From Eledone cirrhosa (Eukaryota): a DNA stretch of 64,000 nt. The DNA is taken from NCBI GenBank assembly GCA_964016885.1, contig OZ024761.1, forward strand, positions 20,522,001-20,586,000, read 5' to 3'. The translations under genes and the position numbers were made by a program. Positions 58,495 to 58,512 of this stretch are shown here, piece after piece; the first letter of the stretch is position 1, and the number at the start of each line of letters is the position of its first letter. The notes under the pieces were generated by a model. That model was not told where the DNA came from. It worked only from the letters and a program-made list of their open reading frames with translations, and made no database searches.

Positions 58495-58512
58495 AGTGCG
58501 GAAGGGATAAAG
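58495..58512 (+). CDS. unc-104: unc-104 18-nt microexon in loop 12 (K-loop): SAEGIK
   Basis: About 50-nt pyrimidine-rich tract ending ttttgtgcAG, then AGTGCGGAAGGGATAAAG and donor AAG|GTAAGG. Phase 0/0 and frame-preserving. Confidence 0.8.

What the first reader, a model, noticed from the sequence alone, without database searches (positions are those of the whole stretch)
58495..58512. 18-nt microexon tuning the K-loop of the kinesin-3 motor
Seen: strong splice sites around a frame-preserving SAEGIK exon, giving ALADV[SAEGIK][11 protein letters not shown]. The flanks are unusually repeat-poor, with a duplicated ~97-bp UG-rich block at 58557-58747 and (T)GCATG RBFOX-type motifs at 59590, 59651 and 59705. 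Known: the K-loop binds tubulin acidic tails and governs landing rate and processivity, and vertebrate KIF1A/KIF1B have an 18-nt exon at this position (alternative in KIF1B, as I recall). Inference: an ancient, probably neurally regulated microexon that automated annotation would easily miss.
Basis: partly seen in the sequence, partly recalled or inferred. Interest (0 to 1): 0.75.

Follow-up and report, generated by a model that had tools for sequence, protein, structure and literature searches.

The report
Octopus kinesin K-loop microexon
An octopus-type animal's main nerve-transport motor gene (unc-104/KIF1) holds an 18-base exon that adds six residues with no net charge to the motor's microtubule-gripping loop; it sits where vertebrates have a known nerve-specific mini-exon, is likely optional and nerve-enriched here too, and would tune grip by loop length rather than by charge.

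Summary
The exon is real. Window 58495-58512 is AG/GT-bounded, phase 0/0, and encodes SAEGIK in the octopod unc-104/KIF1 gene. The same peptide is in 7 of 7 listed O. bimaculoides RefSeq isoforms, so annotation did not miss it. One decapodiform species has transcript-type proteins with and without the insert, otherwise identical. With/without pairs at this junction also occur in snails, bivalves, a nemertean, Daphnia, hymenopterans and fish KIF1B; 21 of 22 hand-picked inserts are charge-neutral. Zebrafish kif1b's 18-nt exon is published as neural and Srrm3/4-regulated. A fly unc-104 exon sharing its position with a mouse one was judged probably convergent. Skipping and neural bias in this species are untested: reads gave no junction. 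The RBFOX, UG-block and repeat-poor arguments are weak. The scan earlier noted an insect 3-nt counterpart on other DNA. Verdict: new member of a known kind. The open point is whether it is one bilaterian-ancestral exon or a repeated gain.

The parts
58495..58512 (+). 18-nt phase 0/0 microexon encoding SAEGIK, the N-terminal spacer part of loop 12 (K-loop) of unc-104/KIF1; net charge 0
   Evidence: Sequence; exact peptide in 7 of 7 listed O. bimaculoides RefSeq isoforms; gap-free model
58429..58494 (+). 3' splice-site region: T-rich tract, 64-nt AG-free zone, middling acceptor score; no UGC at -40..-6 and no CTRAY motif within 60 nt
   Evidence: AG-free zones of 21 acceptors range 14-316 nt, median 54
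58513..58518 (+). Strong 5' splice site after the microexon
   Evidence: score 10.9; 3 of 19 leave-one-out donor scores are higher
57685..57828 (+). Upstream exon (48 aa, switch II to helix 4), ending in a phase-0 donor at a site shared by many animals
   Evidence: 104 of 109 unspliced read-through ORFs continue with V (GTN) at this point
63655..63736 (+). Downstream exon carrying the five-lysine run of the K-loop and the start of the conserved motif after it
58553..58748 (.). Local tandem duplication (about 93 and 100 nt) with TG-rich tracts; no shown role
   Evidence: alignment; loose ends of DNA-type contigs X1-X3 fit the duplication; one match, itself, in the own genome (that search skips common words)
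59590..59710 (+). Three GCATG motifs 1.08-1.19 kb downstream; RBFOX role unsupported
   Evidence: only 3-in-120-nt cluster among 32 (+) and 49 (-) GCATG in 84 kb; 5 of 189 pentamers of similar abundance cluster so in this intron
35898..51742 (+). Six upstream coding exons of the same motor domain (35898-35997, 41301-41383, 44117-44296, 45291-45356, 50653-50831, 51631-51742)

Best explanation
An 18-base exon at 58495-58512 of the octopod unc-104/KIF1 kinesin gene encodes six residues (SAEGIK) between helix 4 and the lysine run of the K-loop; it is likely an optional, nerve-enriched exon that would tune microtubule binding by lengthening the loop rather than by adding charge. Shown: the exon, its frame and its position; all five loop lysines lie in the next exon; the insert has one acid and one base; a decapodiform relative has both forms. 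Inferred: skipping in non-neural tissue of this species; control by the Srrm234/eMIC programme, as for zebrafish, human and mouse KIF1B and the fly unc-104 microexon; a longer tether that lets the lysine run reach the alpha- and beta-tubulin tails better, giving a modest gain in weak-state affinity or on-rate. My odds: real exon 0.97, alternatively spliced here 0.8, neural-enriched 0.65, length-based functional effect 0.55.
For: Exact peptide in 7 of 7 listed O. bimaculoides isoforms; a 7-aa version in 8 of 8 listed O. sinensis/vulgaris records. The window's model differs from both species at 11-12 of 580 residues yet keeps all six insert residues of O. bimaculoides. Logan proteins P0128 and P0255 (without) have 0 mismatches over 1730 aligned residues. 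22 hand-picked with/without pairs put the insert at the same junction, the rest of the loop identical in 20; net charge 0 in 21 although length runs 1-8 aa. Zebrafish kif1b DreEX0041536, 18 nt: PSI 95.5 neural, 6.3 muscle, change -30.9 on eMIC loss; its human counterpart +96 on eMIC expression (PMC12626424 supplement rows); the RT-PCR primers, read by eye, flank this junction. Mouse Kif1b 18-nt and fly unc-104 3-nt exons are listed as eMIC-dependent (PMC8797185 supplement rows). The K-loop bridges both tubulin tails in cryo-EM (PMC11219953, passages) and aids initial binding (PMC4091829, abstract).
Against: No skipping record in the genus Octopus: 15 of 15 listed include it (15 of the cluster's 30 were listed). 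No tissue data for any mollusc were seen. The eMIC-type signature is not evident: no separate UGC at -40..-6, no CTRAY, ordinary AG-free zone, though UGC is reported in only 74-79% of SRRM3/4 microexons (10.1101/2024.09.17.613571, passages). KIF1A run length was reported to depend on loop-12 net charge and not on sequence (PMC9871336, passages), which predicts little effect for a neutral insert; loop length was held constant in those charge mutants. Deleting the zebrafish exon had minor effects, only a social-behaviour change being named. The terminal K of many inserts may only reflect the AAG donor consensus, and the pairs are not independent.
Confidence: 0.6

Rival explanations
1. The exon is constitutive in octopuses: always included, a fixed part of the loop, with no tissue switch.
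For: 15 of 15 listed Octopus records include it; the donor is strong; no eMIC-type motif near the acceptor.
Against: Both forms occur in one decapodiform species and in records of Haliotis, Biomphalaria, Physella, Mytilus, Mizuhopecten, Ruditapes, Dreissena, Mya, Magallana, Saccostrea and Gigantopelta. The one Argonauta model lacks it (may be an annotation miss). 15 further Octopus records were not listed.
Confidence: 0.2
2. On origin: small exons arose several times at this one old intron (a hotspot), so the mollusc, arthropod and vertebrate exons are look-alikes and not one ancestral exon.
For: Lengths differ (3 nt in arthropods, 12-24 nt in molluscs, 18 nt in vertebrates) and mollusc and vertebrate peptides share little beyond an acid and a terminal K. 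No insert is on record in Patella (0 of 8), Ostrea edulis (0 of 10), Schistosoma (0 of 10), Artemia (0 of 2) or single records of Lottia, Owenia, Tubulanus and Ciona savignyi. PMC8797185 favours convergence (section 13). A 20-species preprint that includes O. bimaculoides names only APBB and MADD as confidently ancestral (10.64898/2026.09.05.749416, section 9).
Against: An optional insert at the identical phase-0 junction in gastropods, bivalves, cephalopods, a nemertean, Daphnia, hymenopterans (18 of 70 mostly hymenopteran records) and vertebrates. Missing records are weak evidence, since microexons drop out of gene models. The one-residue A/T inserts cannot come from tandem acceptors (Q/E/K) or donors (V) at a phase-0 junction, so they are likely 3-nt exons, which weakens the argument that the fly exon is missing from other insects.
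Confidence: 0.5
3. The exon is regulated but the six residues hardly change motor behaviour; it is a tolerated spacer.
For: Net charge 0; run length reported to scale with charge alone; minor zebrafish phenotype; insert length varies freely from 4 to 8 aa in molluscs.
Against: Kept in three mollusc classes. An effect of KIF1B splice inserts on motor activity is cited to Matsushita 2009 (citing passages; paper not held); that a longer K-loop insert raised activity is my recall only.
Confidence: 0.25
4. Inclusion is driven by RBFOX on the downstream GCATG cluster and by UG-binding proteins on the duplicated block.
For: It is the only 3-in-120-nt GCATG cluster in 84 kb on either strand; 5 of 189 comparable pentamers cluster so in this intron.
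Against: No GCATG within 500 nt downstream or in the upstream intron; the test is post hoc; TG repeats are common here (43% tandem-repeat cover); conservation could not be tested; the vertebrate and fly exons are listed as eMIC-dependent.
Confidence: 0.1
5. A chance AG..GT pseudo-exon that is never spliced.
For: 4 of 15058 opposite-strand pairs score as high; no junction was seen in the laid contigs (uninformative).
Against: Exact peptide at the exact place in another octopus's RefSeq proteins, and related inserts across molluscs.
Confidence: 0.02

Closest known systems
Vertebrate KIF1B 18-nt K-loop microexon (zebrafish DreEX0041536, human HsaEX0034475, mouse MmuEX0025502; PMC12626424, PMC8797185)
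   Same: Same gene family, same phase-0 junction after helix 4, 18 nt, net-neutral peptide ending in K, lysine run in the next exon
   Different: Peptide not alignable (SAEGIK against DNCTSK); neural switch and Srrm3/4 control measured there, untested here; vertebrates have KIF1A/B/C, and one clear unc-104 locus was found here
O. bimaculoides unc-104 RefSeq isoforms (XP_052832525.1 and others)
   Same: Identical six residues at the identical place; gap-free alignment
   Different: 12 of 580 residues differ elsewhere, so the window is likely another octopod; these are gene models, with no skipping form among the 7 listed
Drosophila unc-104 3-nt eMIC-dependent microexon DmeEX0010000 (PMC8797185)
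   Same: The paper reports a fly unc-104 exon at the same position as a mouse Srrm3/4 exon. That it is this 3-nt exon at the K-loop is my inference from the supplement coordinates
   Different: One codon against six; the authors favour convergence
C. elegans unc-104 21-nt microexon of AVM/PVM neurons (PMC12084633)
   Same: Neuron-type-specific microexon adding 7 aa in the motor domain (passage)
   Different: Its place in the motor domain could not be found, so equivalence is unknown

Membership tests
unc-104/KIF1 kinesin-3 | Motor domain near-identical to KIF1A/unc-104 | tested here: met
   Upstream exon best matches KIF1A chains, E 2e-22 against 4e-17 for KIF13B; 568 of 580 residues identical to O. 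bimaculoides unc-104
unc-104/KIF1 kinesin-3 | Lysine-rich K-loop in loop 12 | tested here: met
   Five-lysine run at the start of exon 63655-63736
Microexon (3-27 nt) | At most 27 nt, canonical splice sites, present in a protein record | tested here: met
   18 nt, AG/GT; peptide in RefSeq models of a related octopus
Microexon (3-27 nt) | Junction reads in this species | tested here: inconclusive
   No run on record as RNA; contigs gave no joint, and the X4 contig stops at 57815
eMIC/SRRM3-4-dependent neural microexons | Alternative, frame-preserving cassette | tested here: inconclusive
   Frame-preserving; both forms in a decapodiform but 0 of 15 listed Octopus records skip it
eMIC/SRRM3-4-dependent neural microexons | Neural-enriched inclusion | not testable with these tools
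   No tissue RNA available
eMIC/SRRM3-4-dependent neural microexons | UGC near the 3' site, long AG-free zone, strong branch point | tested here: not met
   No UGC at -40..-6, AG-free zone 64 nt (median 54), no CTRAY within 60 nt; the feature is typical, not obligatory
eMIC/SRRM3-4-dependent neural microexons | Dependence on an eMIC-bearing Srrm234 protein | tested here: inconclusive
   PF15230 found nothing in the own genome, but rang in 0 of 14 prokaryote controls too; dependence needs an experiment
Orthologue of the vertebrate KIF1B K-loop exon | Same intron position and phases | tested here: met
   Insert after residue 288 in both; read-through ORFs mark phase-0 donors before and after the fish exon
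Orthologue of the vertebrate KIF1B K-loop exon | Sequence similarity, or continuous presence in intervening lineages | tested here: inconclusive
   Peptides not alignable; amphioxus, echinoderms and hemichordates not among the named records; several lineages lack it on record

The most novel reading that the evidence does not exclude
The KIF1/unc-104 K-loop microexon is a single exon inherited from the bilaterian ancestor, a third such case beside APBB and MADD, overlooked because its length drifts (3 nt in arthropods, 12-24 nt in molluscs, 21 in a nemertean, 18 in vertebrates). What is conserved is a neural switch that lengthens the K-loop at zero net charge, a length dial on microtubule grip separate from the known charge dial.
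Probability: 0.35. Interest if true: 0.55.

Novelty: new member of a known kind. Interest (0 to 1): 0.3.

Why it matters
The exon itself is in public gene models, and its vertebrate counterpart has been studied, so it is no surprise to a specialist. The added value is comparative. Protein records show an optional, charge-neutral insert at this junction across molluscs, a nemertean and several arthropods, which bears on a published call of convergence between fly and mouse. The natural 1-8 residue series also offers a direct test of whether K-loop length, apart from charge, changes kinesin-3 landing and processivity. Eight full-text searches listed no paper on this exon in molluscs. The library lacks most subscription papers, including the 2019 eMIC paper and Matsushita 2009, and the supplements of the 2026 preprint, which may classify this exon, were not seen.

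Tried and rejected
Reads: no RNA holder listed. The one completed laying, 57600-58590, showed three DNA-type runs of one sample covering 58226-58587 without differences, and one contig on 57683-57815; no joint either way. The downstream junction was not examined with reads. A first crude splice scan missed the exon because its pyrimidine cut-off was too strict; it was replaced by a matrix scan, whose first run crashed and was rerun without the last exon and one doubtful donor. The eMIC regulator search was uninformative. Matsushita 2009 and the 2019 eMIC paper are not held. The C. elegans exon's position was not found. The 50%-cluster search gave few animal KIF1 records and no named amphioxus or echinoderm among the 10 of 150 looked up. 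Rejected: chance pseudo-exon; RBFOX cluster and UG block as main regulators; 'missed by annotation'; a charge-adding role; a second microexon in this intron (best decoys are a stop-containing 33-mer and a 13-mer). No structure was predicted, since cryo-EM of the KIF1A loop exists.

Full report
Observation. Window 58495-58512 is preceded by a T-rich tract and AG, is followed by a GT donor, and reads SAEGIK in frame between exons 57685-57828 and 63655-63736, both junctions in phase 0. The gene is unc-104/KIF1: the upstream exon best matches KIF1A structures, six more motor exons lie upstream, and the gene goes on past the window. A model of 16 exons that includes the microexon gives 580 aa without a stop and aligns without gaps to O. 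bimaculoides isoform X1 with 12 mismatches, and to O. sinensis with 11 and one gap. The window is therefore likely another octopod.

Chance. On a matrix from this gene's own 19 donors and 20 acceptors (microexon left out; one doubtful donor and the last exon dropped), the donor is strong (3 of 19 higher) and the acceptor middling (13 of 20 higher). The pair ranks 3rd of 883 candidates in the intron and first among frame-preserving, stop-free ones, but 4 of 15058 opposite-strand pairs score as well. The decisive evidence is the protein record: the same six residues in 7 of 7 listed O. bimaculoides RefSeq isoforms and a 7-residue version in 7 O. sinensis and 1 O. vulgaris records, 15 of the cluster's 30 members being listed. 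Annotation has thus not missed this exon.

Is it optional? No listed Octopus record skips it; the single Argonauta model lacks it. Of 17 decapodiform records, 6 lack the region, 8 carry an insert and 3 do not. Logan proteins P0128 and P0255 (without) have no mismatch over 1730 residues, and as full-length reading frames on 5.7-5.9 kb contigs they look like transcripts of one species. Reads for the window's own species gave no answer.

Spread. I picked 22 with/without pairs from records where both forms were seen; a few are cross-species. The insert falls at the same junction in cephalopods, gastropods, bivalves, the nemertean Lineus, Daphnia, hymenopterans and goodeid KIF1B, the rest of the loop being identical in 20 pairs. 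104 of 109 unspliced read-through ORFs continue with valine right there, which marks an old phase-0 intron. The arthropod inserts are one alanine or threonine (18 of 70 mostly hymenopteran records; 4 of 7 Daphnia magna). Tandem splice sites at a phase-0 junction could add only Q, E, K or V, so these are likely 3-nt exons (inference). Against continuity: no insert in Patella (0 of 8), Ostrea edulis (0 of 10), Schistosoma (0 of 10), Artemia (0 of 2) or single records of Lottia, Owenia, Tubulanus and Ciona savignyi. No amphioxus or echinoderm record was among those named.

What is known. Zebrafish kif1b has an 18-nt exon with PSI 95.5 in neural tissue and 6.3 in muscle, responsive to eMIC, with a regulated human counterpart; its deletion gave a minor social phenotype (PMC12626424: passages; supplement rows). 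Its primers, read by eye, flank this junction. PMC8797185 lists mouse Kif1b 18-nt and fly unc-104 3-nt exons as eMIC-dependent (supplement rows), names unc-104 among four fly-mouse exons at the same position, and favours convergence (section 13; sections 9 and 10 also read). A 2026 preprint over 20 species, O. bimaculoides included, names only APBB and MADD as confidently bilaterian-ancestral and does not mention KIF1 or unc-104 in its main text (passages; section 9; supplements not seen). C. elegans unc-104 has a 7-aa motor-domain microexon in two touch neurons, place unknown (PMC12084633: passage and supplement passages).

Mechanism. All five lysines lie in the downstream exon. The insert adds one glutamate and one lysine, and 21 of 22 inserts are net-neutral although they run from 1 to 8 residues (the pairs are related, and a terminal K may reflect the donor consensus). 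In cryo-EM the KIF1A loop projects between helix 4 and the tubulin surface and contacts both tubulin tails (PMC11219953, passages). It aids initial binding (PMC4091829, abstract), and run length scales with its net charge at fixed length (PMC9871336, passages). The exon therefore cannot act by charge. The likeliest action is a longer tether for the lysine run, with a modest gain in weak-state grip in neurons (inferred). KIF1B splice inserts are cited as changing motor activity (citing passages; cites the paper for brain splicing); the source, Matsushita 2009, is not held, and its result that longer K-loop inserts raise activity is my recall.

Regulation. The eMIC route rests on analogy only. 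Near the acceptor there is no separate UGC at -40..-6, no CTRAY motif, and an ordinary AG-free zone; UGC is not obligatory (10.1101/2024.09.17.613571, passages); the regulator search was uninformative. The three GCATG form the only such cluster in 84 kb, but lie over 1 kb away with none within 500 nt, and 5 of 189 comparable pentamers cluster likewise. The UG-rich block is a local duplication in a window that is 43% tandem repeat. The flanks are clean for 250 nt, as for 4 of 19 internal exons.

Verdict. A real, already annotated microexon and a new member of a known kind; interest 0.3. The boldest reading left open is a single bilaterian-ancestral, length-variable and charge-neutral K-loop switch (probability 0.35). 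An earlier scan note on an insect 3-nt exon at this loop, seen after my own inference, agrees but is not independent support.

Noticed in passing
window 61101-61133: Best-scoring AG..GT pair in the K-loop intron; it holds an in-frame stop and lies in a dispersed repeat that also appears near 57435-57495, so a decoy.
   Followed up: partly
window 63655-63657: The octopod downstream exon starts with one more codon (V) than the decapodiform one, so the octopod K-loop is one residue longer in both isoforms.
   Followed up: no
P0151 against P0317-P0329 (Pomacea canaliculata records): Two different K-loop inserts, 5 aa in 1 record and 9 aa in 13, suggesting two alternative exons in this intron.
   Followed up: no
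P0125, P0246 (O. sinensis, O. vulgaris): The insert is 7 aa there against 6 aa here and in O. bimaculoides: a one-codon gain within the genus.
   Followed up: no
window 57994-58221: TC/CA microsatellite array 270-500 nt upstream of the microexon; could bind pyrimidine-tract proteins, but such arrays are common in this genome.
   Followed up: no
P0233 and other Octopus unc-104 records, residues about 797, 913, 1125-1160, 1587: Further optional segments (2, 14, 16, 22, 24 and 47 aa) in the stalk and tail; a 46-aa optional segment in a bee record sits at a matching place to the 47-aa one.
   Followed up: no
P0521: A bird record of KIF1A-like loop sequence lacks the six-residue segment, so skipping may not be limited to KIF1B, or the model is incomplete.
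   Followed up: no
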